Source: Spirochaetaceae bacterium (GTDB lineage: Bacteria; Spirochaetota; Spirochaetia; B11-G9). From it: a stretch of 64,000 bases of DNA. A model generated the notes under the pieces. The model ran no database searches, was not told the origin of the DNA, and was given only the letters and a program-made list of their open reading frames with translations. The number at the start of each line of letters is the position of its first letter. The first letter of the stretch is position 1. Where the stretch lies: assembly GCA_015493635.1 (NCBI GenBank), contig WGCU01000053.1, forward strand, positions 813 to 64,812, in the 5' to 3' direction. Positions 1 to 11,366 of the stretch are shown in pieces. The position numbers and the translations under genes are program-made.

Positions 1-548
1 AAAAATCTATTTCTGTTCATGTACGACTGGTTATCCATAAATCCAATCCCTGTGGGAAAAGGAGGTTGATGAAGAAAAACCATCGTATCGTGGTTTGATG
101 CCAGTTCATCTTCAAGTGCATCGAGTTCACCATCTGTCAAACTTCCTGATGCTTTTCCGGGTTCCACAGAATCCAGGAGAATTATTTTCTTGCCATGTTC
201 CTGAAACGAGTGGAATATTCGGCTATCCTTATAATTTTTCAGGTATGAAAGTTCACTGAAAACCTCTGCCATATTTGCTTTATTATCGTGATTTCCCGGG
301 ATAATGTAGTAGGGGATGGTAATCCCTGACAGTAAATCTTTTGCAATCTCATAGGACGAGATACTTCCGTCGTCACTTACATCGCCGGTTATACAAAGAA
401 AATCTACGTTAAACGGCAGTTTGTTTATATGCCGTATAAAATTCTTTAAACTCTGCAAAGAATCAGATACTTCATATGCGTTTATACCGTTTCTACATAT
501 ATGAAAATCTGAGGCTTGAGGTATTGTCAGAAAATTTCTTCCCATCAT
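1..548 (-). CDS. Calcineurin-like metallophosphoesterase, CpdA/Icc/GpdQ type (3' end truncated by window edge)
   Basis: Manual translation from ATG at 548 (or 545): MMGRNFLTIPQASDFHIC...CITGDVSDDG...IIPGNHDNK...LLDSVEPGKASG...VFLHQPPF, i.e. DxH, GD, GNHD and H metal-ligand motifs. RBS AGAGGGA upstream. Open to position 1; absent from ORF track because no stop lies in the window. Confidence 0.88.
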   Translation of the reverse strand, partial: MMGRNFLTIPQASDFHICRNGINAYEVSDSLQSLKNFIRHINKLPFNVDFLCITGDVSDDGSISSYEIAKDLLSGITIPYYIIPGNHDNKANMAEVFSELSYLKNYKDSRIFHSFQEHGKKIILLDSVEPGKASGSLTDGELDALEDELASNHDTMVFLHQPPFPTGIGFMDNQSYMNRNRF

Positions 549-570
549 TTTCCCTCTAAAGCTGCTGTTT

Positions 571-1668
571 TTAAGCAAGAACTTCTTTCATTATTTTTAG
601 AAAATCTTTACAGTCTTGCGGATATATTTGACCCATATTTGCAATCTGAAACATATTCTGTTCCAGAAGCGGACCCTTTCCCAAGTAGAGCACATACCCC
701 CGTTCTTCCATGGTACTGATAAAAGTATCAATATTCTTATCTTCAGGTAAAAACACAGAGGTCACTGTGTTAGACATAGTATGCTCATCAGAGAGGAGCA
801 TTTTTAAATGAAGATCCCTGACCCCTTGCCGTATAATTTCCGCGTCTTTTTTATATCGGGCTATTACCTCTTCCTGACCCTCCTCAAAAAGTACATCCAG
901 GGCTTTATTCAATGTAATAAACATGACGACTGAAGGGGTGTTAGGTGTTTGATTATGTTTCTCTGCTTCTCTTACATGATGTTGTAAATTCAAATAGACA
1001 TTTCTGGGAGGTACCGTATTTTCTATTTTTTTGTAGGCATTTTTGTTAATGCAGATAAAAGAAACACCGGGCTGCCCGGCAACTGCCTTATTCGGAACTC
1101 CGGTGCAGAAATCTATGTGGTCTCTGACAACATTAACCTCTTCGCCTCCTATGGCGCTTATTGCATCGACATGGTACATTTTGTTATATTTTACCGCTAG
1201 ATCTCCTACTTCATGAACAGGATTTACCATTCCCGTACTTGTTTCCTGAAATACCATTGAAATGAGACTGATATCCTGATCATTTTTTAAGGCTGTCTCT
1301 ATTCTTCCTAGATCAGGAGACGTTCCCCATTCAAATTCAAGCAGATTTAAACCGAGGTGGTAACATTCAATGATATCTTTCAACCGGTTACCGAATACAC
1401 CGTTTGTTATAAGGAGTACCTTTTTCCCATCTCCAACAACCGACGATAATACTGTTTCATTTGAAGATGTTCCTGAGCCGCTTACAACAACGGTGGTATA
1501 TTCTTCTTCCGTTGCACGGAAGAGGCGTATGAGTTTTTTCCGAACCTCTCCATATACATGTTCAAACGAGGGCCTTCTGTGGCATAGATCCGGTGCTAAA
1601 GCAGCTTCTTTTACTCTTTTGTCCGTTAATACCGGGCCTGGCGCAAATAAAAATTTCCTTTCGAGCAT
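571..1668 (-). CDS. PLP-dependent class V aminotransferase, PhnW/AEP-transaminase-like (substrate uncertain)
   Basis: Motifs FAPGP, GSGTSSNE, NGVFGNR, ETSTG, DAISAIGG, PNK (PLP lysine); RBS GGAGG. C-terminal FQIANMG instead of FRIGxxG. Confidence 0.85.
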   Translation of the reverse strand: MLERKFLFAPGPVLTDKRVKEAALAPDLCHRRPSFEHVYGEVRKKLIRLFRATEEEYTTVVVSGSGTSSNETVLSSVVGDGKKVLLITNGVFGNRLKDIIECYHLGLNLLEFEWGTSPDLGRIETALKNDQDISLISMVFQETSTGMVNPVHEVGDLAVKYNKMYHVDAISAIGGEEVNVVRDHIDFCTGVPNKAVAGQPGVSFICINKNAYKKIENTVPPRNVYLNLQHHVREAEKHNQTPNTPSVVMFITLNKALDVLFEEGQEEVIARYKKDAEIIRQGVRDLHLKMLLSDEHTMSNTVTSVFLPEDKNIDTFISTMEERGYVLYLGKGPLLEQNMFQIANMGQIYPQDCKDFLKIMKEVLA

Positions 1669-1706
1669 TGTCTCTCCTCCGATTGGATATAGCTAAACTA
1701 GGTAAT

Positions 1707-1767
1707 ATGATATCTAGTTGTCAAGTTGTTATGATAACCTTATAACACAAATTAAATGACAAGTCAA
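1707..1767 (-). promoter_or_regulatory. sigma70-type promoter of the aminotransferase with overlapping operator
   Basis: Minus strand TTGACT (1767-1762), 17 bp, TATAAG (1744-1739); palindrome TGTTAT-N9-ATAACA at 1727-1747; ATGATATC at 1707-1714. Colinear with 6627-6687. Confidence 0.75.
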
Positions 1768-1804
1768 GAAATTCTTACATAAAGGTTCTCATGATATTTT
1801 AATG

Positions 1805-1836
1805 AAACTTCTGCAGTAAGCCAGCAGAAGTTTTTT
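1805..1836. terminator. Intrinsic terminator after dctM (potentially bidirectional)
   Basis: Inverted repeat AAACTTCTGC (1805-1814) / GCAGAAGTTT (1824-1833) with A/T tracts on both sides, about 80 bp after the dctM stop. Confidence 0.7.
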
Positions 1837-1916
1837 CTACGAAAAATAGAATAGGTCATAATCCCTGGATCTCATTCTCTCATTCTCCCTTGGGGTTATG
1901 ACCATTTTGAGATGTA

Positions 1917-3236
1917 TCAATTACCGAAATACTTGTAAGGTAGCCATGTAACAATATCCGGAAACAGAATCAAAATTGCAATTGTTCCTGCCATTATAAA
2001 TACAAAGGGAACTATTGATCGATATATATCTCCAATTGTAATTTCTTTGGGGGCCATAGCTTTCATAAGAAAAAGATTATACCCGAAAGGAGGAGTCAGA
2101 TAAGCTATCTGACATGTGATGGTATAAAGCACACCATACCAGATTGGATTAAATCCTAAACTTATTACCAACGGGATATACAGGGGAGCAACGATGATCA
2201 GCATAGCAGTATCATCAAGAAAAGTTCCTAAAAGAAGGAAAGAAACCTGCATGGAGACAATCGTTCCAATCGGCCCAAATCCATGGCTAAGGAAGAGCGT
2301 TTTGATAGCATGCACAGCTCCAAGACCATCAAAAATTGCAGCAAAAGCCATTGCTGACATAACAACCCACATAAACATGGCACTTACACTTAACGATTGG
2401 GTCATGACCTTGTTCATAACCTTCCAGTTTAACCGCTTTTTTATCGCGGCAGCAATAATGGTAGCAACGGCACCGGTAGCAGCACTCTCAACCAGGCTTG
2501 TTACTCCCATGAAAAATAGTCCTGACATCATCAAGATAATAAAGAGAGGGAGAATCCCGCCGCGCAGTGCATGAATTTTTTCTTTAAACGGTACGTCCCA
2601 TTCTTCTCTGGACAATGCCGGTCCTAATTTTGGTTGGATCTTACACCGGACAACAATATAGATAACAAATAATGTTGCCATTAAAAGACCCGGCATAACA
2701 CCGGCCAGCCAGAGTTGTCCTACCGGCTGTCTGGCAATCATGCCATAAAGCACCAGTACAACACTCGGAGGTATCAAAATACCCAAGGAACTACCAGCCT
2801 GAATGACTCCTGTTACCATTTTTTTGTCATATTTCTTTTTTAGCATTTCAGGAAGTGCAACACTGCTCCCGACGCTCATACCGGCAACGCTCAACCCATT
2901 AATAGCAGATATTATTGCCATAAGTATAATGGTCCCGATAGCTAAACCGCCTTTAAGGGAGCCCATCAAAATATGAATTAGTTTATACAGGTCTTCCGAT
3001 ATTTTTGACTCAGAAAAAAGATAACCGATGAATACAAAAATAGGCAGCGTAACAAGAGGATACCAGTTTATAAGGGTAAAAGCGGAATGAAACCCCATAT
3101 CTATACCACCGGGTCCCCAGAGAATGACTGCAAATATGGAAGCAACCCCTCCTATAACAGCATAAATATGCCGGCCTGACAGGAGTACAACAAACATGGT
3201 AAGAAACATCAATAATGCGATAAATGAATAACTCAC
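1917..3236 (-). CDS. dctM: TRAP transporter large permease
   Basis: About 12 hydrophobic helices; GSSLGILIPPS and LTPPFG motifs. Start placed at GTG 3236 (GGAGG upstream, GTGA overlap with dctQ stop) rather than 3263. Confidence 0.92.
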   Translation of the reverse strand: MSYSFIALLMFLTMFVVLLSGRHIYAVIGGVASIFAVILWGPGGIDMGFHSAFTLINWYPLVTLPIFVFIGYLFSESKISEDLYKLIHILMGSLKGGLAIGTIILMAIISAINGLSVAGMSVGSSVALPEMLKKKYDKKMVTGVIQAGSSLGILIPPSVVLVLYGMIARQPVGQLWLAGVMPGLLMATLFVIYIVVRCKIQPKLGPALSREEWDVPFKEKIHALRGGILPLFIILMMSGLFFMGVTSLVESAATGAVATIIAAAIKKRLNWKVMNKVMTQSLSVSAMFMWVVMSAMAFAAIFDGLGAVHAIKTLFLSHGFGPIGTIVSMQVSFLLLGTFLDDTAMLIIVAPLYIPLVISLGFNPIWYGVLYTITCQIAYLTPPFGYNLFLMKAMAPKEITIGDIYRSIVPFVFIMAGTIAILILFPDIVTWLPYKYFGN

Positions 3237-3781
3237 AGGTTTTCCTCCACATTTTTGATCCACGAAGTATCTTGACCGAGTGCTATGGTAATATCCTTTA
3301 TAAGTTCAGATATAACCTGCAATAACATTAATGAAATTCCTACTGTTGCAATTAACTTCATTGGTGCTATTGGTGGACCCCAAGCCGAATAATTTTTCTG
3401 CGCATATTTTATTGCAAATGAGGTACTGCTTATTCCCCCAAGTAAGAGTCCTGTTAGATACGCAAGACTGAACACAAATGTAATAACATCAACAATAGCT
3501 TTCTTTCTTCGTGACCATTTATCATAGAAAACATCCATTCTGACATGACCGCCGATGAGAAGAACAAAAGCACCTCCCAAGAGATAATAGGTACCGTTGA
3601 TAAATTCGGTCATTTCCAAAGCCCATTTGTCTGGATGATTAAAAATCGTTCTTGAAATGGCTTCATAAGTCAAAACACCTATCATCACCAGAATCAGATA
3701 TTTTATTACCTGACCTACTATTGTGCTTATTGAGTCTACAGAACGTACGTAAATTTTTAATGGCTTAATCATAAAATCCAT
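3233..3781 (-). CDS. dctQ: TRAP transporter small permease
   Basis: 4 TM segments, GHVRMDVFY motif, lies between dctP and dctM. Confidence 0.9.
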   Translation of the reverse strand: MDFMIKPLKIYVRSVDSISTIVGQVIKYLILVMIGVLTYEAISRTIFNHPDKWALEMTEFINGTYYLLGGAFVLLIGGHVRMDVFYDKWSRRKKAIVDVITFVFSLAYLTGLLLGGISSTSFAIKYAQKNYSAWGPPIAPMKLIATVGISLMLLQVISELIKDITIALGQDTSWIKNVEENL

Positions 3782-3810
3782 TTCTCTCCTTACTCAATTA
3801 GTATCAAACG

Positions 3811-3848
3811 CTGCCATATCTACTGTGTGAAACAGCAGAATATGGCAG
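3811..3848 (-). other. Intergenic stem-loop between dctP and dctQ (mRNA stabiliser or attenuator)
   Basis: CTGCCATAT (3811-3819) / ATATGGCAG (3840-3848) inverted repeat with internal pairing. Confidence 0.5.
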
Positions 3849-3904
3849 TGAAACAAGCCACCCTGAAATAAATCAAGGATTAGCAGAATAAAACTACTGA
3901 CTTA

Positions 3905-4999
3905 TTATTTACCGCACGTATAGGGAGGACCCGCTTTTGCTCTAACTGCTGCGTATTTCTTGAAAGCTGCAATTACTCTAGCAGAACGGGGACTCTTTTT
4001 GGAAAGTGTATCCCAGTACTTTTCAGCCTGTTTGTCAACGCCTGTCCACTCATTTGCCGGGATTGATGTAAGTTCCATTTTGTCACCACTCGTCCGGTAT
4101 TTAGCTTCACCCCACCAGTACCAGTTCAATCTATAATAATTTGATGCCTGAATTGTCATCATCAGCAGCCTCTGTAAATGATCAGGAAGAGCTTTCCATG
4201 ATTTTGTATTTACAAAGAATCCGCCGGACCATGCACCTGAAATAGGATTAGTCAATAAATATTTACATACATCAGCTACTCCGGTAGTGTAAAGTTCTGT
4301 GGCACCTGACCAGGATACTCCATCGAGCATCCCTGTCTGAAGCGCCATCTGTACATCTTCAACCGGCATTACTACAGGTACAACACCGTATGTTTCCTCA
4401 AGAAATTTGCCATTGAAAAGGGATGTAAAAAGTCTTAATCCTTTAAGATCTTTTACATGACGGATTGGTTTATTACTGGCAATAAGACAAGGATCCCAGC
4501 TGCCCTGAGCCAGCCAGGTTACACCTGGTATCTCATCATAAGCCTCTTTCCAGATCTCATTCAAACCATAACGATTCCACAAAACGTCAATATCAAGTCC
4601 TATTCTCCCTGCAGCTGGAAAATATGCGGAGAATATTGCAACATCAGCAGGTGAACCCATGGACTCATCATCACTGACAACCATATCTAAAGTTCCTTTT
4701 TGAAGAGCGTTAAACATTTCCCCTTGAGGGACCAGCTGATCAGCTCCGTATAATTCAATTTCCATTTCTCCATTGGCGATCTTGTTAAATTCTTTAACCT
4801 TGTTGCCAAAGATTTCATCGTTCATTGATGGGCCGGCATACGTTTGCAGCCTCCACTTAATCATTTTCTTTTTTGGTGCAGCCTGCGCAGTTCCTCCTGT
4901 TTCTGCCTTTTGGCCGCAACTAATGAACACTATGGAAGCCATTACTACCAATGCAGTAAGTCCCAAAACCAAGGGTCGCTTAAAAAGATTTTTTTTCAC
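3905..4999 (-). CDS. dctP: TRAP substrate-binding lipoprotein (DctP/TakP family, non-carboxylate type)
   Basis: GTG start with AGGAGG; signal peptide with lipobox FISC; WRLQTYAG, DLKGLRLFT, LQTGMLDG motifs. Confidence 0.9.
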   Translation of the reverse strand: MKKNLFKRPLVLGLTALVVMASIVFISCGQKAETGGTAQAAPKKKMIKWRLQTYAGPSMNDEIFGNKVKEFNKIANGEMEIELYGADQLVPQGEMFNALQKGTLDMVVSDDESMGSPADVAIFSAYFPAAGRIGLDIDVLWNRYGLNEIWKEAYDEIPGVTWLAQGSWDPCLIASNKPIRHVKDLKGLRLFTSLFNGKFLEETYGVVPVVMPVEDVQMALQTGMLDGVSWSGATELYTTGVADVCKYLLTNPISGAWSGGFFVNTKSWKALPDHLQRLLMMTIQASNYYRLNWYWWGEAKYRTSGDKMELTSIPANEWTGVDKQAEKYWDTLSKKSPRSARVIAAFKKYAAVRAKAGPPYTCGK

Positions 5000-5046
5000 T
5001 TTTACCTCCTGTGTAAAATCTGATAATATTTTTACGAACTTAATAT

Positions 5047-6540
5047 TTAAGTCCGATATTCCAAAATTCCAATCACTTTAAATAATTTTTCCCAGATACG
5101 AAAACGTTCATCAAGGAAAGGATCAAACGGCTCTTGAAAAACAATTGAATCCAAATTAAAGGCTAAAATATCATCATAGCTTTTCAGAAGCCCCATTTCC
5201 AAAGACGCAAGAAAAAAACAACCTAATGAAGTAAGATCCTCATTCTTAGATTTAATAATTTTAATACCAGTTAGTTGGGCAATGGTCTTAAGAATATAAC
5301 GGGACTTGCTGACTCTGCCGTCAACAGAAAGATTTCTTATTTCAATACCTGTTTCTTTCTCTATAAGTTTAATGTTTTGTACTATTCTAAAAGCAATTGC
5401 CTCCAGAACAGAACGAACCAAATCACTTTTGGTAGTTTGTAAACTCATGCCGAGAAATGCAGCAAAAGGCTCACTCTTCCAGTAGGGAGCTGAAACGCCG
5501 GAAAGAGCAGGAATAAAGAAGGGTTGTGTAACAGGCTTGATATTTTCAATAGTATCAATATCAGAATATTCTTCTAACAGGTCGTTTTTTTTAAGCCATT
5601 CTATTGCTGAGCCTACTGAATATATTTGACCCTCATATATATATGATTTTTGATCAAACATTTGAGGAAAAAGAGATTTTATAATTATACTGCTTTTATT
5701 TTTGGAATCTTTTCCACTGTTTACTTGTAAAAATCCACCGGTACCCAAGGTTAATTTGGCTTCACCTTTTCTGAAACATCGATGCCCAACAAGCGCTGCC
5801 TGTTGATCTACGACAGAAACCAGAATGGGAGCCTTGACCCCGAAACACATTTCAGGATCAGTTGTACCATAATTATTCATGGCCGGGGAAATAGCCGGCA
5901 TACTCTTACTATTAAGGTGAAAAAAATTAAGTATCTTATTATCCCATTGCAATGTTTCAATATCCAGCAGCATCGTCCGTGAAGCAGTTGTAAAATCAGA
6001 TTTTAATTCTTTTTTGCTGATTAATTTGTTAATTAACCATACTTCTGATGTTGCCATTACAAGATTGTTATTATCCATCTCTTTTTTTACATTACTGACG
6101 TTTTGAACTAACCATTCCATTTTGGCAGCTGAAAAATATGAACTTGCAAACAATCCTGTTCTATTCTTGACGTAATCATTTAAATCGGTATCTTCGATTA
6201 ATTGTTGAATCCGATCTTCTCCTCTTCCGTCCTGCCAGCTGATTGCATTATATAAAGGAGACAAATCATTTTTTCTGAACGGAATAATCGTTTCTCCCTG
6301 GTTATCAATAGCTACAGCACATACTGTTTCAGGATGAATTTTTGACTTTTTAATAACATCTTCAATACCTTTTCGAATGCTTCCTAATACTTCTTCAGGA
6401 TTCTGCTCTATAAAATTTTCAGAACTTTCAACAAAACGGATAATATTTGTAGATTCTGCTATTTTACTGCCGGAAGTATCATACAAAATAACCTTTGTAG
6501 AGCTTGTGCCTTGATCAATAGTAAGTATATATTTTTTCAC
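5047..6540 (-). CDS. FGGY-family carbohydrate kinase, glycerol-kinase-like but divergent
   Basis: DQGTSSTK, NQGET, WQDGR, YFSAAK, ASRTML, DQQAAL, GTGGF, APYW motifs; GTG start with GGAG. Confidence 0.85.
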   Translation of the reverse strand: MKKYILTIDQGTSSTKVILYDTSGSKIAESTNIIRFVESSENFIEQNPEEVLGSIRKGIEDVIKKSKIHPETVCAVAIDNQGETIIPFRKNDLSPLYNAISWQDGRGEDRIQQLIEDTDLNDYVKNRTGLFASSYFSAAKMEWLVQNVSNVKKEMDNNNLVMATSEVWLINKLISKKELKSDFTTASRTMLLDIETLQWDNKILNFFHLNSKSMPAISPAMNNYGTTDPEMCFGVKAPILVSVVDQQAALVGHRCFRKGEAKLTLGTGGFLQVNSGKDSKNKSSIIIKSLFPQMFDQKSYIYEGQIYSVGSAIEWLKKNDLLEEYSDIDTIENIKPVTQPFFIPALSGVSAPYWKSEPFAAFLGMSLQTTKSDLVRSVLEAIAFRIVQNIKLIEKETGIEIRNLSVDGRVSKSRYILKTIAQLTGIKIIKSKNEDLTSLGCFFLASLEMGLLKSYDDILAFNLDSIVFQEPFDPFLDERFRIWEKLFKVIGILEYRT

Positions 6541-6618
6541 AATAACTCCATAATTACTCTCTTAAGCATACTCTCATTCCTTTTCTATATATTTTTAAAA
6601 ATAAGGCAGTTAGTCCAA

Positions 6619-6687
6619 ATAACAACATGATATCAAATTATACGGTTGTTATGATATGATAATAACATGAATATATGACCATGTCAA
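6619..6687 (-). promoter_or_regulatory. sigma70-type promoter of the kinase-TRAP operon with overlapping operator
   Basis: Minus strand TTGACA (6687-6682), 17 bp, TATTAT (6664-6659); palindrome TGTTAT-N9-ATAACA at 6647-6667; ATGATATC at 6627-6634; extra half-site ATAACAAC at 6619-6626. Confidence 0.75.
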
Positions 6688-6816
6688 TTATTTTTTTTAA
6701 CTTTTTGCTACCCCTGCTGGGGTAATAAAAATCCGCCTATAAGTGGGGAGTTTAAGGTTGTTAACGGATATCTAATAGTGTGGTATCTGAGAAAAAGAAA
6801 TTTATACACGTACAGA

Positions 6817-8190
6817 TTAAATGGAGCCGCTCAGTTTCAATACCATGGATCGGAAGGTATCCCCACGGTCAAACTCGTTTAAAAACATACCGAATGAAGT
6901 TGCGCCGGGAGAAAAAATAACAGAGTCGCCCCGTCTGCTGTCGTTATAAGCTGCTGAGACAGCATCCTGAAGATGTACGAAGGGTCCCTGGAAAGAGATG
7001 TGCTCAGCCTTAAGAAGAGGTATCATTCTGTCTGTTGCTGTGCCTTTCAGAAGATAAATGGATTCCGGTATTCGTGCGGCTTCGGCAAATCCGGTAAAAT
7101 CAAGATTCTTGTCTGTCCCCCCGCAAATAAGAAGAACATGCTCCTGAATGCTTTCGACGGCAGCTGCCGCAGCCTGAGGAATCGTTGAAGCGCTGTCATT
7201 GTACCAGGTAACCCCGTTTATAACCGTTACTTTTTCCATACGGTGCGGAATACCACTAAAAGCGGAAAGTTCTTGTGCAATAAAATTGTTATCCAGCCCC
7301 TGAAAATTAAGAACGGAGGCAGCGTAGAGAAGGTTCAGTTTGTTGTGTTTCCCCTTGATATTTGTTTCTTCAGGAAGAACCTTTTTTACCTTTCCGTTTT
7401 CCTGAATAAAACCGGATTCTTCTGTCAGAAACGCACCGTCAATAGAAGGGGGCAGGGGGTCCTTTGAAACAAAAAAAGATTTTGCAGTTGATTCAGAGGC
7501 AAAAATTCTTCCTGTTGGTTCATCGAAATTGCAGATAAGATGACTAGTACTGTTCATATCCTGATATATTAGTTTTTTGTCGTCAATATATTCCTGCATA
7601 CTTGAATATCTGTTCTGGTGATCATGCATTATATTTGTTATAACTGCTGTTTTGGGATACAGCAGATGCTTATCCTTGAGATCCGCCAGCTGCCAGGAGG
7701 AAAGTTCAAGAATAACAGGATCTTCCCTCTCTACGGTACATTTATCTGCAAAAGTAAGGGGAGAGACGGTAATATTTCCTCCAAGTTTTGTTTCGGGAAA
7801 ATGTTTTTTCAATACATGGTATATGGCTGAAACGGTTGTTGATTTCCCCTTGCTTCCGGTAACAGCTATTAAAGGCCGTTTGTTCAGAGAAAGGAAAATT
7901 GATATATCTGTCTCTACCTGTTTTGCTGCTCTCAGGAAGGGGGATGAAGGGAGTACTGCCGGGTTTTTAATAACGATGTCCGCTGTTTCAAAATCTGAAA
8001 GTTTATGTTCTCCCAGAGTATAAGATATCGGGTACTTTTCAAGTTTTTGCATGGATGGGGCAAGGACTTCTTCAGATCTCAGATCTGTCACTGTGACACG
8101 GGAACCGTGTTCTGCGAAAAAAAGAGCGGAGGCGAGCCCTCCTCCGTGAAGGCCAAGTCCCATAACGGTTACTTTTATATTAAAATTCAA
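6817..8190 (-). CDS. murD: UDP-N-acetylmuramoyl-L-alanine--D-glutamate ligase
   Basis: GLGLHGG, TGSKGKSTT P-loop, ELSSWQL, HQNRY, NDSASTIP, SPGATSF...F..RG motifs; exact start uncertain (TTG). Confidence 0.92.
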   Translation of the reverse strand: MNFNIKVTVMGLGLHGGGLASALFFAEHGSRVTVTDLRSEEVLAPSMQKLEKYPISYTLGEHKLSDFETADIVIKNPAVLPSSPFLRAAKQVETDISIFLSLNKRPLIAVTGSKGKSTTVSAIYHVLKKHFPETKLGGNITVSPLTFADKCTVEREDPVILELSSWQLADLKDKHLLYPKTAVITNIMHDHQNRYSSMQEYIDDKKLIYQDMNSTSHLICNFDEPTGRIFASESTAKSFFVSKDPLPPSIDGAFLTEESGFIQENGKVKKVLPEETNIKGKHNKLNLLYAASVLNFQGLDNNFIAQELSAFSGIPHRMEKVTVINGVTWYNDSASTIPQAAAAAVESIQEHVLLICGGTDKNLDFTGFAEAARIPESIYLLKGTATDRMIPLLKAEHISFQGPFVHLQDAVSAAYNDSRRGDSVIFSPGATSFGMFLNEFDRGDTFRSMVLKLSGSI

Positions 8191-9124
8191 TAGAGTATTC
8201 CTTCATATCAAAATCATTAAGGTACGCTTGTACGGTAAAAGACCGCCATACATTTTTCCAGAATAGCGGTACTTTTGATTTTAAAGTTTTAAATTCCGGT
8301 AGATCTGAACTAAACGGAGTATGATGCAGCGATTGTTGAATTTGATCAAGTGCGGGAAGAACAAATTCTCTTGCTTTATGGAGGTAGATAAGGTGCTGTT
8401 TCCTCCCTTCAGGGCTTAGATCAATAAGGGTATTGCACAGTGTTCTGTACTTACAGGTAAAGGGATAGTAGGGGTAGAGGGTTTTTCCCTCCGGAATAAA
8501 AAGCTTGGAAAGAAATTTTGTAAGTTCGGAATCTATCCATATCCCTTCTATGTAATAACCTCTCCCTGTTTCACCAATCCATGTCTGCGATATATTCTGT
8601 TCGATAATAAATTTTTTAACCTTTCCTTTTTCTGTTACAACATCCTTCAAGGGCATGAGGTCAGATTCGAGGAAGATATTTCGTGTTTTAAAACGATTTG
8701 TAGTATCATTTGTACCCCGTATCAGTATTTTCCCATCATTTGGTCTGAAACTTAAATCGAGCCTTAGAAGATACAAATACATCTGCTCTTTTATCTTGAG
8801 TATCTGGTAAAAAGAGGGATGAAATATTTCAGCAGGATCAAAAAAATAGGTAACTCTGCTGAAAACTGACGGAAGTACCGGCAGGAGCTGCAGAAGCAGG
8901 TCTTTAAGGGCGGAAATGTAGGTTTTGCCGGGGACCGGAATGGTTACATCGTGATGAATAGGAAAGGAATAGATGGTAAAAGGCGCCGGCAGCTTGAGGA
9001 AAAACTCTTCATTTTGGTTAAAATGAGTTGTATGGACTTTTTTCATTTTATAATTGTTTTTTAAAACATCATTTATTTCTTTGCTGGCAGAATGCACAGT
9101 AATTTCATTGTGTATCTTCCTCAT
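8180..9124 (-). CDS. Hypothetical cytoplasmic protein, translationally linked to murD
   Basis: 314-aa ORF overlapping the murD start; no family recognised. Confidence 0.75.
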   Translation of the reverse strand: MRKIHNEITVHSASKEINDVLKNNYKMKKVHTTHFNQNEEFFLKLPAPFTIYSFPIHHDVTIPVPGKTYISALKDLLLQLLPVLPSVFSRVTYFFDPAEIFHPSFYQILKIKEQMYLYLLRLDLSFRPNDGKILIRGTNDTTNRFKTRNIFLESDLMPLKDVVTEKGKVKKFIIEQNISQTWIGETGRGYYIEGIWIDSELTKFLSKLFIPEGKTLYPYYPFTCKYRTLCNTLIDLSPEGRKQHLIYLHKAREFVLPALDQIQQSLHHTPFSSDLPEFKTLKSKVPLFWKNVWRSFTVQAYLNDFDMKEYSIEF

Positions 9125-9160
9125 TACAAGTACTATACCCCCTCAGTACCAATATTGCAA
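9125..9160 (-). promoter_or_regulatory. sigma70 promoter, probably producing a leaderless transcript of the hypothetical-murD operon
   Basis: TTGCAA (9160-9155), 17 bp, TATAGT (9137-9132), 7 nt, then ATG at 9124; no Shine-Dalgarno. Confidence 0.55.
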
Positions 9161-9194
9161 CATGGAAATAATCAATGAAAGGGGCGTAAACCCC

Positions 9195-9223
9195 TTGACT
9201 ACCTGGCCTTCTATTTGCATAAT
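9195..9223 (+). promoter_or_regulatory. sigma70 promoter of the bS22 gene
   Basis: TTGACT (9195-9200), 17 bp, CATAAT (9218-9223). Confidence 0.6.
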
Positions 9224-9263
9224 CCTATGAAGATATTGATATTCAGCTAAGGAGCGGACTGTA

Positions 9264-9353
9264 GTGCCTTGTGGAAGAAAACGAAAACGGCATAAAATTG
9301 CTACTCATAAGAGAAAAAAGAAACTGAGAAAGAACAGACATAAGAATAAATAG
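9264..9353 (+). CDS. Small basic ribosomal protein, bS22/mS38 (AURKAIP1/COX24-domain) type, 29 aa
   Basis: GTG start with AAGGAG RBS; translation MPCGRKRKRHKIATHKRKKKLRKNRHKNK; stop TAG 9351-9353. Below the ORF-track length cut-off. Confidence 0.85.
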   Translation: MPCGRKRKRHKIATHKRKKKLRKNRHKNK

Positions 9354-9373
9354 TTTTTATGTTCAGACAAAAA

Positions 9374-9423
9374 GGATTTCATTGGAATCTCGTAAGCGGT
9401 TCTTATGGAATCCTGATTTTTTT
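9374..9423 (+). terminator. Probable terminator after the small ribosomal protein gene
   Basis: GGATTTCAT...ATGGAATCC imperfect stem followed by a T-run. Confidence 0.45.
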
Positions 9424-9458
9424 CACTATCTCTTATCCTGTGAGTTGGTTCAAATGAA

Positions 9459-11366
9459 ATGGAATCAGAAACAATTCTTTCCCGTATAAAATCACCAAAA
9501 GATGTTAAAGCTCTTCTCCCTTCAGAGCTCCCCTTTCTTGCACAGGAGATCCGTGATCGGATTATCGATGTTGTTCATAAAAACGGCGGTCATCTTGCTT
9601 CTAATCTTGGTGTTGTTGAGCTAACCATTGCGATGCACCGTGTGTTTGATTCCCCGCAGGATCAGTTTGTCTGGGATGTCGGCCATCAGTGCTATACTCA
9701 TAAAATCATAACGGGAAGAAATGACAGCTTTGACACTATTCGCCTTAAAAATGGTTTAAGCGGCTTCCCCAAGCGTAATGAGAGTATACATGACCCTGTT
9801 GAAACAGGGCATGCCTCAACTGCAATCTCAGCGGCTTTGGGAATATTACGGGGGAAGAGACTCCAAAAAGATTCAGGAAAAGTTATTGCGGTAATCGGAG
9901 ACGGGGCAATAACCGGCGGTATCGCTTTCGAGGCACTGAATCATGCCGGGCAGCTTAAGGATGATTTAATTGTTATCTATAATGATAACAATATGTCCAT
10001 AAACAAAAATGTCGGAGGTTTCTCCTCCCGTTCCACTATTTCAAGAAGTGCTTCCTATATCAGCCGTGTTACCGCTACAAGAAATTATCAGCGTATACGG
10101 GACATGATAGACAAAGGGCTGCTTAAAACACCTTTTTTCGGCTACAGAATTTTTCAGGCTGTCATGCGTTTGAAAAAGAGCGTGAAAGCTGTGTTCCTCC
10201 ACGAAACATTTTTTTCTGAACTCGGTTTTGAGTATGTCGGGCCTTTAGACGGGCATTCGTTTTCAATGCTTATACGGGTACTCAAGCGGGTGAAAAAACT
10301 CCATAAACCGGTTGTTGTTCATGTTGTGACCCAAAAAGGGAAAGGGTTTAAACTGGCTGAAGATAATCCTGTACGGTATCACGGTATAGGGCCAATGACT
10401 TCTGTTGATGGTAAAATTGAACCGCAACTGGGGGTAACCTTTACAGAGGCCTTTGCTGAGGCCCTTGTAAAGCTTGCAGACAAGGATGAACGGATTACCG
10501 CTGTGTCAGCGGCAATGGTAAAGGGTACCGGTCTGACCCGTTTTCAGGAAAAATATCCTGAAAGGCTTTTTGATGTCGGAATTGCCGAACAGCATGGAAT
10601 TACCTTCTCCGCGGGGCTGGCAGTATCGGGTATGAAACCGGTAGCAGCTGTCTATTCAACTTTTATGCAGAGGGCTGTGGACCAGGTTATTCATGATGTT
10701 GCTCTTCCCGGGTTACCGGTAGTTATTGCCATGGACCGTGCGGGCCTTGTTCCGGGAGACGGTGAAACCCATCAGGGAGTTTTTGATATTTCGATATTCC
10801 GGGCTGTTCCGGGAATAGAGTTCCTGGCTCCCGCTTCTCAAGATGAAATGGAGAGTATGCTTGCGTATGGTATTGATGCTTCCGTGCCGGTTTTGATCCG
10901 ATACCCAAAAGCTGTTTGTCCTCCTGAATTTTCAGGGACAGATAAACCTCTCGAACGGGGAAGGGGCGTTTTTATTAAAAAAGATACTTCCAGTATCCTT
11001 CTTGCTGCTACCGGCGGTCTTGTTGGAGAGGTGCTGAGTGCTTCTGAAGGCCTTGCGGCAAGGGGTGTCAAAACTGATATTTATAATCTGCGGTTTATCA
11101 AACCAATTGATGAAAAATATCTGGAAAGTATTCTTTCTCAGTATGAAAAAGTTTTTTTTATTGAAGAAAATTCCGGTAAAGGCGGTGTTGGAGAATATAT
11201 TGCTTCCCTCATTCAAAAGCATAATCGGGATATTGATTTCCGTTATCTCTCTGTTCCCGATCTCTTTATTCCCCAGGGGACCCGGGCTGAACTTCTTGCA
11301 TTCTGCGGTATAGATTCGAAAAGTATCATGAATTCAGTTTTATCAGCAGTGAAAGTAAAGGTTTAA
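9459..11366 (+). CDS. dxs: 1-deoxy-D-xylulose-5-phosphate synthase
   Basis: [22 protein letters not shown] motif, [24 protein letters not shown]. Confidence 0.97.

What the first reader, a model, noticed from the sequence alone, without database searches (positions are those of the whole stretch)
1707..6687. Two promoters 4920 bp apart share a composite operator of unknown regulator
Seen: 1707-1767 and 6627-6687 align without gaps: ATGATATC, N10, GTTGTTATGATA, N5, ATAACA, then GTCAA (-35 on the minus strand). Both contain the palindrome TGTTAT-N9-ATAACA (1727-1747, 6647-6667) covering the -10 box, plus ATGATA direct repeats 24 bp apart. The intervening spacers differ, so selection appears to act on the boxes rather than reflecting a recent duplication. 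Inference: one repressor controls both units, defining a regulon. Mixed direct and inverted repeats next to an aminotransferase resemble MocR/GabR-type (GntR) operators, but no regulator is in the window; it may lie left of position 1.
Basis: partly seen in the sequence, partly recalled or inferred. Interest (0 to 1): 0.7.

Follow-up and report, generated by a model that had tools for sequence, protein, structure and literature searches.

The report
Shared repressor operator at two promoters
Two promoters of a nutrient-uptake and breakdown gene cluster in an uncultured vent spirochaete carry the same conserved DNA boxes, most likely the binding sites of an ordinary GntR/HutC-type repressor whose gene lies about 5 kb outside the window; this is a routine, previously undescribed regulon rather than a new kind of system.

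Summary
Sites 1707-1767 and 6627-6687 align without gaps at 42/61 identity, against 31±1.4 (maximum 37) in shuffles. GTTNTYATGATA occurs three times in 64 kb, only in these two promoter regions.

Both sites are sigma-70-type promoters on the minus strand. P2 drives a glycerol-kinase-like gene plus TRAP dctPQM. P1 drives a PhnW-like aminotransferase, a metallophosphoesterase and, beyond the window, a PotABCD-like ABC importer.

Footprinting over about 20 orthologous loci and unbiased motif discovery give a 14-bp pseudo-palindrome, (G/C)AT(A/G)TTATGATA(A/T)(C/T). It sits right after the -10 (window 1725-1738, 6645-6658). A second box, GATATCAT…, lies 24 bp downstream (1701-1714, 6621-6634).

The same motif lies about 20-30 bp upstream of a GntR+UTRA (HutC-subfamily) regulator gene, which neighbours this gene cluster in 14 of the fetched loci (regulator identity 50% or more). 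Loci that use LysR or DeoR lack the motif.

The window organism's copy of the regulator (P0122) lies on a contig from the same run. That contig abuts the window's locus about 4.4-5.1 kb left of position 1.

The MocR/GabR assignment is not. The TGTTAT-N9-ATAACA palindrome is half extended -10. All of this is computational. The pathway's substrate is unknown.

The parts
6682..6687 (-). P2 -35 hexamer TTGACA
   Evidence: Invariant in related strains. Aligned with TTGAC[ATC] in five of the six orthologous promoters of alignment A2.
6659..6667 (-). P2 extended -10 (TGT-TATTAT).
   Evidence: 17-nt spacer, TG before the hexamer. A related strain has 6661 A>G, which gives TATCAT, the -10 seen in L082 and L084.
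6645..6658 (+). Operator O1 of P2: GTTGTTATGATATG, a 14-bp pseudo-palindrome that abuts the -10 and covers the expected transcription start
   Evidence: De novo EM motif, 16.1 bits. Invariant in related strains. TTATGATATGATAA is shared with the regulator gene's own upstream region in L171.
6621..6634 (-). Operator O2 of P2: GATATCATGTTGTT, centre 24 bp downstream of O1. The left half-site is perfect and the right half is weak.
   Evidence: Alignment A2. GATATCAT (6627-6634) is invariant in related strains, while 6623 and 6626 vary.
5047..6540 (-). FGGY, glycerol-kinase-like kinase; first gene of the P2 unit
   Evidence: NCBIfam GlpK 385 bits, below the 590 cutoff. Pfam FGGY_N and FGGY_C.
1917..4999 (-). 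TRAP transporter: dctP 3905-4999, dctQ 3233-3781, dctM 1917-3263
   Evidence: Pfam DctP, DctQ and DctM.
1806..1832 (-). Terminator-like hairpin between dctM and P1 (AACTTCTGC…GCAGAAGTT)
   Evidence: Read. A similar hairpin followed by a T-run sits at the same position in L086. It did not pass the scan's T-run rule on the minus strand.
1762..1767 (-). P1 -35 hexamer TTGACT
   Evidence: Invariant in related strains.
1739..1747 (-). P1 extended -10 (TGT-TATAAG), 17 nt from the -35
   Evidence: Invariant in related strains.
1725..1738 (+). Operator O1 of P1: GTTGTTATGATAAC. It contains the perfect palindrome GTTATGATAAC at 1728-1738.
   Evidence: EM motif, 17.7 bits. PWM 19.3 bits. Invariant in related strains.
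1701..1714 (-). Operator O2 of P1: GATATCATATTACC, centre 24 bp downstream of O1
   Evidence: Alignment A2. The only strain variant is 1709 G>A, which gives GATATTAT, a form allowed by the consensus.
1785..1798 (+). Doubtful third box, GTTCTCATGATATT, about 20 bp upstream of the P1 -35
   Evidence: Matches GTTNTYATGATA and the PWM at 16.2 bits. It is altered in two related strains and has no counterpart in orthologs, so it is probably not functional.
571..1668 (-). PhnW/AepZ-like class V aminotransferase; first gene of the P1 unit
   Evidence: TIGR03301 282.7 bits, below the 360.8 cutoff. Pfam Aminotran_5.
3..548 (-). Metallophosphoesterase (CpdA/SpdA-like phosphodiesterase). Only the N-terminal 182 of 277 aa are in the window.
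   Evidence: Pfam Metallophos. Full length in L001.

Best explanation
Both sites are sigma-70-type promoters whose start regions carry operators for one HutC-subfamily GntR repressor (GntR wHTH plus UTRA domain). In this organism the repressor is protein P0122. Its gene is convergent with the ABC-transporter genes that continue the P1 operon, about 4.4-5.1 kb left of window position 1.

The operator unit is a 14-bp AT-rich pseudo-palindrome with consensus (G/C)AT(A/G)TTATGATA(A/T)(C/T) and half-site G-W-T-R-T-Y-A. Each promoter has a strong copy, O1, directly after the -10 and over the transcription start. A second, weaker copy, O2 (GATATCAT…), is centred 24 bp further downstream.

Bound repressor would block RNA polymerase or open-complex formation. 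An unknown pathway metabolite binding the UTRA domain would release it. The regulator gene carries the same box at its own promoter, so it is probably autoregulated.

The regulon would then be: (1) kinase plus TRAP dctPQM; (2) aminotransferase, phosphodiesterase and a PotABCD-like ABC importer; (3) the regulator itself.

Shown computationally: the motif, its conservation and position, its co-occurrence with the regulator gene, and its absence where other regulators are used. Inferred: binding by this protein, repression, the effector, and the physical link between L001 and L171.
For: Motif and position:
- Gene-oriented alignment of eight promoters from five genomes shows -35, 17 nt, -10, then ATATTATGATAAC-type box, about 10 nt, then GATATCATGTTATCA.
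- EM started from unbiased seeds finds the 12-14-mer in most of the 25 operon and regulator promoter regions. 21 of them score 14 bits or more; the four weakest are L179, L004 copy 1, L178 and L090. The window's GTTGTTATGATA(AC/TG) is among the matches.
- The 9-mer TTATGATAW has a background of 0.03-0.05 per kb over 2.3 Mb, yet it sits at the operon and regulator promoters of the GntR-linked loci.

Link to the regulator:
- A GntR+UTRA gene lies beside or close to the cluster, or its transporter, in L082, L084, L170, L004, L005, L087, L088, L090, L092, L138, L176, L177, L178 and L179.
- ACAGATATTATGATAT, or a near variant, lies 18-44 bp upstream of the regulator's start codon in L171-L174, L082, L084, L170, L087, L088, L004b, L175, L176 and L177.
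- Loci where the same operon is paired with LysR (L003, L006, L168, L169) or DeoR (L167) have no PWM hit of 13.6 bits or more and no 9-mer at their promoters.

Regulator in this organism:
- P0122 is 90% identical to the L082 regulator. It is on L171, from run SRR10312499, the same run as L001, which matches the window.
- L001 ends at SBP residue 109 and L171 starts at residue 107.
- The L171 flank (MarR, MetRS, FemAB) matches the flank of the regulator in L084.

Other support:
- In related strains, O1, the -10, the -35 and GATATCAT are invariant while the spacers change.
- The protein's nearest solved relatives are the repressors DasR and NagR/YvoA.
- Many GntR-family operators fit a GT-Nx-AC palindrome, and weaker adjacent half-sites are documented (PMC4494728).
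Against: - There is no experimental binding, transcription-start or expression data, and no RNA runs were found.
- The motif is GT-N10-AC. It departs from the HutC consensus GTMTAKAC (GT-N4-AC) given in PMC4494728, so family knowledge does not predict it.
- The window's O1 boxes are in the opposite orientation from those of orthologs, or shifted 3 bp under another reading. The right halves of O2 are weak.
- Part of the conservation, the box over the -10, is explained by promoter function alone.
- The join between L001 and L171 is inferred from a shared gene break. No overlap was found by blastn.
- The longest contigs on record differ for the kinase (72.5 kb) and the regulator (87.4 kb).
- The regulator scores below the curated cutoff of every named NCBIfam model.
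Confidence: 0.75

Rival explanations
1. The shared sequence is only promoter architecture (-35, extended -10, AT-rich initial transcribed region), kept or inherited from a duplicated promoter. No dedicated regulator binds it.
For: The -35 and TGn-10 elements are part of the aligned block.
Against: The best-conserved columns, TTATGATAAC and GATATCAT, lie downstream of the -10. The same word sits at the regulator's own promoter in at least 10 genomes, and it is absent from promoters of the same operon where a LysR or DeoR regulator is present instead. The two window promoters are no closer to each other than to orthologs.
Confidence: 0.08
2. The conserved boxes act in the mRNA leader. ATGATAAC…GTTATCAT (ATAACAAC…GTTGTTAT in P2) would form a 5'-terminal hairpin that controls stability or translation.
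For: Eight-bp complementarity occupies the same alignment columns in L082 and window P2, with two changed pairs. Seven of eight pairs hold in both L086 promoters. The hairpin appears in the MFE folds.
Against: Covariation and pairing do not exceed shuffles. Fold z-scores are about 0 for four of five leaders. The pairing is absent in window P1 and both L170 promoters. The regulator-gene promoters carry a single box with almost no leader. There is no Rfam match.
Confidence: 0.05
3. A different transcription factor binds the boxes: a MocR/GabR-type regulator, a Pho-regulon response regulator, or a TnrA/GlnR-like nitrogen regulator.
For: A PLP aminotransferase gene is adjacent. In L086 the cluster lies next to pstSCAB-phoU-phoBR. 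TGT…ACA arms loosely recall TnrA boxes (my own recollection, not tested).
Against: A profile of the GntR wHTH finds nothing in the 64-kb window at E<1. No MocR-type gene was noted next to the cluster in the loci whose genes were listed or checked. The TnrA box is 17 bp (TGTNAN7TNACA, my recollection), whereas the arms here span 21 bp. The -35 hexamers are near consensus, which is unlike activator-dependent Pho promoters. The motif tracks the HutC-type gene and its own promoter.
Confidence: 0.07

Closest known systems
HutC-subfamily GntR repressors with solved or studied operators (NagR/YvoA and DasR at dre sites; HutC, TreR, PhnF)
   Same: The domain architecture is the same: GntR wHTH plus UTRA. 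The best PDB sequence matches are DasR and YvoA, at E about 1e-27 to 1e-28. The regulator gene lies next to the catabolic and transport genes it would control. The operators are palindromic and overlap the promoter, there is probably a site at the regulator's own promoter, and auxiliary boxes lie nearby (PMC4494728).
   Different: The operator is GWTRTYA|TRAYAWC (GT-N10-AC in the window). It is not the GTMTAKAC core typical of the subfamily. Scores fall below the curated cutoffs for HutC, PhnF, PhnR, TreR and LSA1692. The effector and pathway are unknown.
Salmonella-type phnR-phnSTUV-phnWX 2-aminoethylphosphonate system
   Same: A GntR/HutC-type regulator is paired with a Pot/PhnSTUV-like ABC importer and a PhnW-like aminotransferase. 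The organisation of the Salmonella system is from my own knowledge.
   Different: There is no PhnX or PhnA-type C-P hydrolase. Instead there is a glycerol-kinase-like FGGY kinase, a metallophosphoesterase and a TRAP transporter. The PhnR model scores 97.6 against a cutoff of 296.75, and PhnW-AepZ scores 282.7 against 360.8.
MocR/GabR-type regulators
   Same: They have a GntR-family wHTH and regulate amine or aminotransferase genes through mixed direct and inverted repeats (PMC5320631 abstract, listed).
   Different: MocR proteins carry a large aminotransferase-like C-terminal domain. The linked regulator here is about 240 aa with a UTRA domain.
BioR (FadR subfamily) operator TTATMKATAA
   Same: It has a similar AT-rich core, TTAT-NN-ATAA, and is cited as a non-canonical GntR-family motif in PMC4494728.
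   Different: It belongs to a different subfamily, and its central spacing is two bases against one in TTAT-G-ATAA. The resemblance was noted only; it was not tested.

Membership tests
GntR family, HutC subfamily (for the presumed regulator P0122 and its orthologs) | N-terminal GntR winged helix-turn-helix (PF00392) | tested here: met
   Precomputed Pfam PF00392 on the full-length proteins among P0121-P0226 and on the neighbour genes. The L084 ortholog (86% identical to P0122) matches the NCBIfam GntR-type models.
GntR family, HutC subfamily (for the presumed regulator P0122 and its orthologs) | C-terminal UTRA / chorismate-lyase-fold effector domain (PF07702) | tested here: met
   PF07702 is present on the same proteins. 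The L084 ortholog aligns over its full length to DasR and YvoA chains.
GntR family, HutC subfamily (for the presumed regulator P0122 and its orthologs) | Operator matching the subfamily consensus GTMTAKAC (GT-N4-AC) | tested here: not met
   The motif found is (G/C)ATRTTATGATAWY; in the window it reads GTTGTTATGATAAC, that is GT-N10-AC. The consensus, and documented exceptions (FarR, NagQ, SdhR), are from PMC4494728. This is a typical feature of the subfamily, not a strictly defining one.
GntR family, HutC subfamily (for the presumed regulator P0122 and its orthologs) | Sequence-specific binding of the protein to the proposed operator, relieved by an effector | not testable with these tools
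   This needs EMSA or footprinting and ligand assays.
MocR/GabR subfamily | Large C-terminal class I aminotransferase-like, PLP-binding domain fused to the GntR wHTH | tested here: not met
   The linked regulators are 240-254 aa with a UTRA domain. MocR models match only the N-terminal ~70 residues. No GntR wHTH ORF is present in the window.
PhnR / PhnF equivalogs (phosphonate regulators) | Score above the curated NCBIfam cutoff | tested here: not met
   For the L084 ortholog, TIGR03337 (PhnR) scores 97.6 against 296.75, and TIGR02325 (PhnF) scores 123.4 against 156.8.
Sigma-70-type promoter with overlapping repressor operator | -35 and -10 hexamers with 16-18 nt spacing upstream of the gene | tested here: met
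   P2 scores 11/12 with TG. P1, TTGACT-17-TATAAG, was read. The same layout appears in L082, L084 and L170 and at the L086 aminotransferase promoter.
Sigma-70-type promoter with overlapping repressor operator | Mapped transcription start within or next to the operator | not testable with these tools
   No RNA runs hold this locus.

The most novel reading that the evidence does not exclude
The regulon may encode an undescribed catabolic route for an anionic, amine-bearing, glycerol-containing compound. Candidates are glycerophosphoethanolamine or the glyceryl ester of 2-aminoethylphosphonate released from phospho- or phosphonolipids. The compound would be taken up by both a TRAP and a Pot-like ABC system, cleaved by the GpdQ/CpdA-like diesterase, and processed by a GlpK-like kinase and a PhnW-like transaminase. 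A HutC-type repressor with a non-canonical operator would sense one of the intermediates. The substrate assignment is my inference from family-level annotations only.
Probability: 0.2. Interest if true: 0.5.

Novelty: new member of a known kind. Interest (0 to 1): 0.3.

Why it matters
It defines, by comparison alone, the operator and likely regulon of an uncharacterised orthologous group of HutC-type regulators. The group is found in uncultured Spirochaetota and in a few other vent and sediment lineages. It also flags a conserved four-part gene cluster (kinase, aminotransferase, transporter, often a phosphodiesterase) whose substrate is unknown. The operator adds one more exception to the GT-N4-AC rule for this subfamily. 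This is useful for annotation and for choosing a target for pathway discovery, but it does not change how such systems are understood.

Tried and rejected
- Single-protein scan of genome contigs with the kinase: no relatives found.
- JGI metagenome scan with the kinase alignment: only relatives at 43% identity or less, although several carried the regulator.
- tblastn of the regulator against the window and L001: nothing found. A GntR wHTH profile against all window ORFs also found nothing.
The regulator was found through the search for homologous proteins and the look-up of encoding contigs instead.
- RNA-level reading: Rfam at gathering and E-value thresholds gave nothing. The candidate leader helix showed no covariation above controls, and leader folds were not more stable than shuffles.
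- Literature search for the motif strings returned only unrelated primers and cloning sites. A search for the gene combination returned nothing relevant.
- Cluster-member look-up gave no names or organisms.
- No RNA-seq runs were available for mapping transcription starts.
- A third box at 1785-1798 looked significant in the window but is not conserved in close strains.
- TnrA/GlnR and Pho-box readings were considered by eye and set aside on spacing and on the strong -35 hexamers.
Full report
**Observation**

They align without gaps at 42 of 61 positions. Dinucleotide shuffles of the two intergenic regions give a best 61-bp match of 31.0 ± 1.4, with a maximum of 37 in 500 trials. Three patterns were counted in the whole window:
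- TGTTAT-N9-ATAACA occurs only at these two places, even with one mismatch allowed (expected 0.29).
- GTTGTTATGATA occurs only at these two places (expected 0.34).
- GTTNTYATGATA has three hits in 64 kb, all inside the two promoter regions (expected 0.11).

**Genes and promoters**

All genes here are on the minus strand:
- murD: 6817-8190.
- [site 2].
- FGGY, glycerol-kinase-like kinase: 5047-6540. GlpK model 385 bits, below the 590 cutoff.
- TRAP dctP 3905-4999, dctQ 3233-3781, dctM 1917-3263.
- A terminator-like hairpin: 1806-1832.
- [site 1].
- PhnW/AepZ-like class V aminotransferase: 571-1668. 282.7 bits, below the 360.8 cutoff.
- A metallophosphoesterase that runs off the left end: 3-548.

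Read on the minus strand, P2 is TTGACA-17 nt-TATTAT with an upstream TG. It is the best promoter match in 1-9500. P1 is TTGACT-17 nt-TATAAG, also preceded by TGT.

No Rfam family matches anywhere in the window, or at relaxed threshold in 1500-7000.

The organism is an uncultured spirochaete from hydrothermal-vent metagenomes. Its Dxs is 73% identical to that of a Guaymas "Spirochaetes bacterium" MAG. The nearest reference genomes do not show the cluster next to murD (in L255 the contig ends about 390 bp beyond murD), so it looks like an accessory insertion.

**Orthologous loci**

Kinase homologs fall into a clear orthologous set at 55-77% identity. Their contigs, plus more distant loci from the collection scans, show a conserved cluster:
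- kinase;
- aminotransferase;
- a TRAP or Pot-like ABC transporter;
- often the metallophosphoesterase.

The accompanying regulator differs by lineage.
- GntR+UTRA (HutC subfamily): L082, L084, L170, L004 (two copies), L005, L087, L088, L090, L092, L138, L176, L177, L178 and L179.
- LysR: L003, L006, L168, L169.
- DeoR: L167.

L084 has the same surroundings as the window (UDPGP, permease, dxs, DUF8295, murD). There the regulator gene follows dctM directly.

**Footprint**

Eight promoters from five genomes were aligned in gene orientation. They share this order:
- -35 hexamer;
- 17-nt spacer;
- TGn-extended -10;
- a box of the type ATATTATGATAAC;
- about 10 nt (13 in the window under one reading);
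- GATATCAT(GTTATCA).

I then ran EM motif discovery on 25 upstream regions: 13 operon promoters and 12 regulator-gene promoters. Seeds were taken from every second position of four of them. It converged on (G/C)AT(A/G)TTATGATA(A/T)(C/T). 21 of the 25 regions score 14 bits or more; the four weakest are L179, L004 copy 1, L178 and L090. In the window it picked GTTGTTATGATAAC (1725-1738) and GTTGTTATGATATG (6645-6658) on the plus strand.

The unit reads as a 14-bp pseudo-palindrome, GWTRTYA|TRAYAWC. The second box, GATATCAT… (1701-1714 and 6621-6634), has a perfect left half-site and a weak right half.

**Link to the regulator**

- ACAGATATTATGATAT, or a close variant, lies 18-44 bp upstream of the regulator's start codon in L082, L084, L170, L087, L088, L004 (second copy), L175, L176, L177 and L171-L174.
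- The 9-mer TTATGATAW has a background of 0.03-0.05 per kb over 2.3 Mb. In the GntR-linked loci it falls at the operon and regulator promoters.
- Loci that pair the same operon with LysR or DeoR have no such word at their promoters and no PWM hit of 13.6 bits or more.
- Regulator orthologs drop sharply from 52-74% identity to 38% or less in the reference genomes, so this is a distinct orthologous group.
- The regulator scores below the curated cutoffs for HutC, PhnF, PhnR, TreR and LSA1692. Its nearest solved relatives are the repressors DasR and NagR/YvoA.

**The regulator of this organism**

The window contains no GntR-type wHTH. A search with the L082 regulator returned P0122 (240 aa, 90% identical). 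P0122 is encoded on L171, a 14.3-kb contig from run SRR10312499. The same run yielded L001, which matches the window's locus and extends 690 bp beyond its left end.

Several observations place L171 next to L001:
- L001 ends inside a PotD-like SBP gene at residue 109.
- L171 begins inside the same gene at residue 107. It continues with the ATPase, two permeases and the convergent regulator gene.
- The far flank of L171 (FemAB, MetRS, MarR) matches the flank of the regulator in L084.

The two contigs therefore most likely abut. That puts the regulator gene about 4.4-5.1 kb left of window position 1. It also makes the P1 unit aminotransferase-phosphodiesterase-ABC importer, as in L170.

Two cautions apply. 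No sequence overlap joins the contigs. The longest contigs on record for the two proteins differ.

The upstream region of P0122 reads TATACAGATATTATGATATGATAAAG. It shares TTATGATATGATAA with window P2.

**Variation among close strains**

Contigs from four other runs are 82-95% identical over these regions.
- In P1 they show no differences in 1710-1749, which covers O1 and the -10. Changes occur in the -10/-35 spacer (1750-1760) and in the flanks. One change, 1709 G>A, turns GATATCAT into GATATTAT, a form the consensus allows.
- In P2, O1, GATATCAT and the -35 are unchanged. The spacers and the weak half of O2 vary. One change, 6661 A>G, turns the -10 into TATCAT, as in L082 and L084.
- The extra box at 1785-1798 is altered in two strains, so I do not count it.

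The two window promoters are 66% identical over the aligned core. Each is 46-74% identical to promoters from other genomes. This argues against a recent internal duplication.

**Mechanism**

O1 abuts the -10 and covers the expected start site, and O2 lies in the early transcribed region. This is the usual layout for repression by occlusion. It fits what is known of HutC-subfamily proteins: repressors released when a pathway metabolite binds the UTRA domain (family knowledge; PMC4494728). The box at the regulator's own promoter suggests autoregulation. Binding, repression and the effector are all inferred.

**Comparison with known systems**

The family review gives NyGTNxACNy for GntR regulators and GTMTAKAC (GT-N4-AC) for most HutC members. 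It lists exceptions (FarR, NagQ, SdhR) and frequent weaker adjacent half-sites.
- The window's GT-N10-AC box departs from the typical HutC core but fits the general family pattern.
- The MocR/GabR idea fails on domain architecture.
- The layout recalls the Salmonella phnR-phnSTUV-phnWX system (my own knowledge). However, the C-P hydrolase is missing, and a kinase, a diesterase and a TRAP system are present instead.
- The ABC components score as Pot/PhnSTUV-like, below cutoffs.

The near arm of TGTTAT-N9-ATAACA is part of O1. The far arm coincides with the extended -10 (TGT-TAT…). The exact palindrome is absent from 13 of the 14 related loci checked; it is present only in L179. L088 and L092 show a different symmetric arrangement over the -10, ATGATAT-N4-ATATCAT. 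Whether the -10-overlapping box also contacts the repressor cannot be decided from sequence.

**Rivals**

- Promoter-only conservation does not explain the boxes downstream of the -10. It also does not explain their tracking of the regulator gene.
- A leader hairpin (ATGATAAC…GTTATCAT; ATAACAAC…GTTGTTAT in P2) exists in some promoters. It shows no covariation above controls and no unusual stability, and it is missing in P1 and in L170.

**Verdict**

This is a real, conserved operator pair for a HutC-type repressor whose gene lies just outside the window. It is a new member of a known kind, of modest interest. The unknown substrate of the regulon is the most interesting open point.

Noticed in passing
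L001 7245-7570 and L171 11463-12318 (left of window position 1): The PotD-like SBP gene (in L001) and the first ABC permease gene (in L171) are each split into two reading frames. This could be an assembly error in the Logan contigs or real decay of the ABC importer in an organism that also has the TRAP system.
   Followed up: partly
L003, L006, L168, L169 (LysR); L167 (DeoR); compared with L082, L084, L170 and others (GntR/UTRA): The same kinase-aminotransferase-transporter cluster, with DctP and DctM 61-85% identical, is paired with three unrelated regulator families in different lineages. This is a clear case of regulator replacement on a mobile catabolic module.
   Followed up: partly
L086 about 7850-7915: An 11-bp unit (CACAAATCTAA) repeats five to six times in tandem just upstream of the kinase promoter. 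The locus lies directly beside pstSCAB-phoU-phoBR.
   Followed up: no
window 6541-8190, compared with L255-L257: The cluster follows murD in the window and in L084. It is not seen next to murD in the nearest reference spirochaete genomes (in L255 the contig ends about 390 bp beyond murD), and in L082 its position differs. The cluster looks like an accessory insertion.
   Followed up: partly
window 1783-1887: In run X7 a related strain replaces about 103 bp between dctM and P1, the stretch that holds the terminator-like hairpin, with 95 unrelated letters. Run X5 has a 7-bp deletion at 1880. This intergenic segment is a hotspot of variation, in contrast to the invariant operator.
   Followed up: no
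L004 7914-8630 and 15049-15765: This contig has two copies of the HutC-type regulator gene with the same alignment statistics. The first 36 bases shown from each gene are identical, but the upstream regions differ. Only the second copy carries ATATTATGATAT.
   Followed up: no
L088 281-312 and L092 about 500-525: In these more distant loci the aminotransferase promoter carries a long perfect palindrome (CATGTTATGATAT-ATAT-ATATCATAACATG in L088) centred on the -10. This is a different arrangement of the same half-sites.
   Followed up: partly
window 8180-9124: A 314-aa protein upstream of murD has no Pfam or NCBIfam hit in my scans. Its orthologs carry the precomputed label DUF8295, and it is conserved next to murD in L082 and L084.
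   Followed up: no
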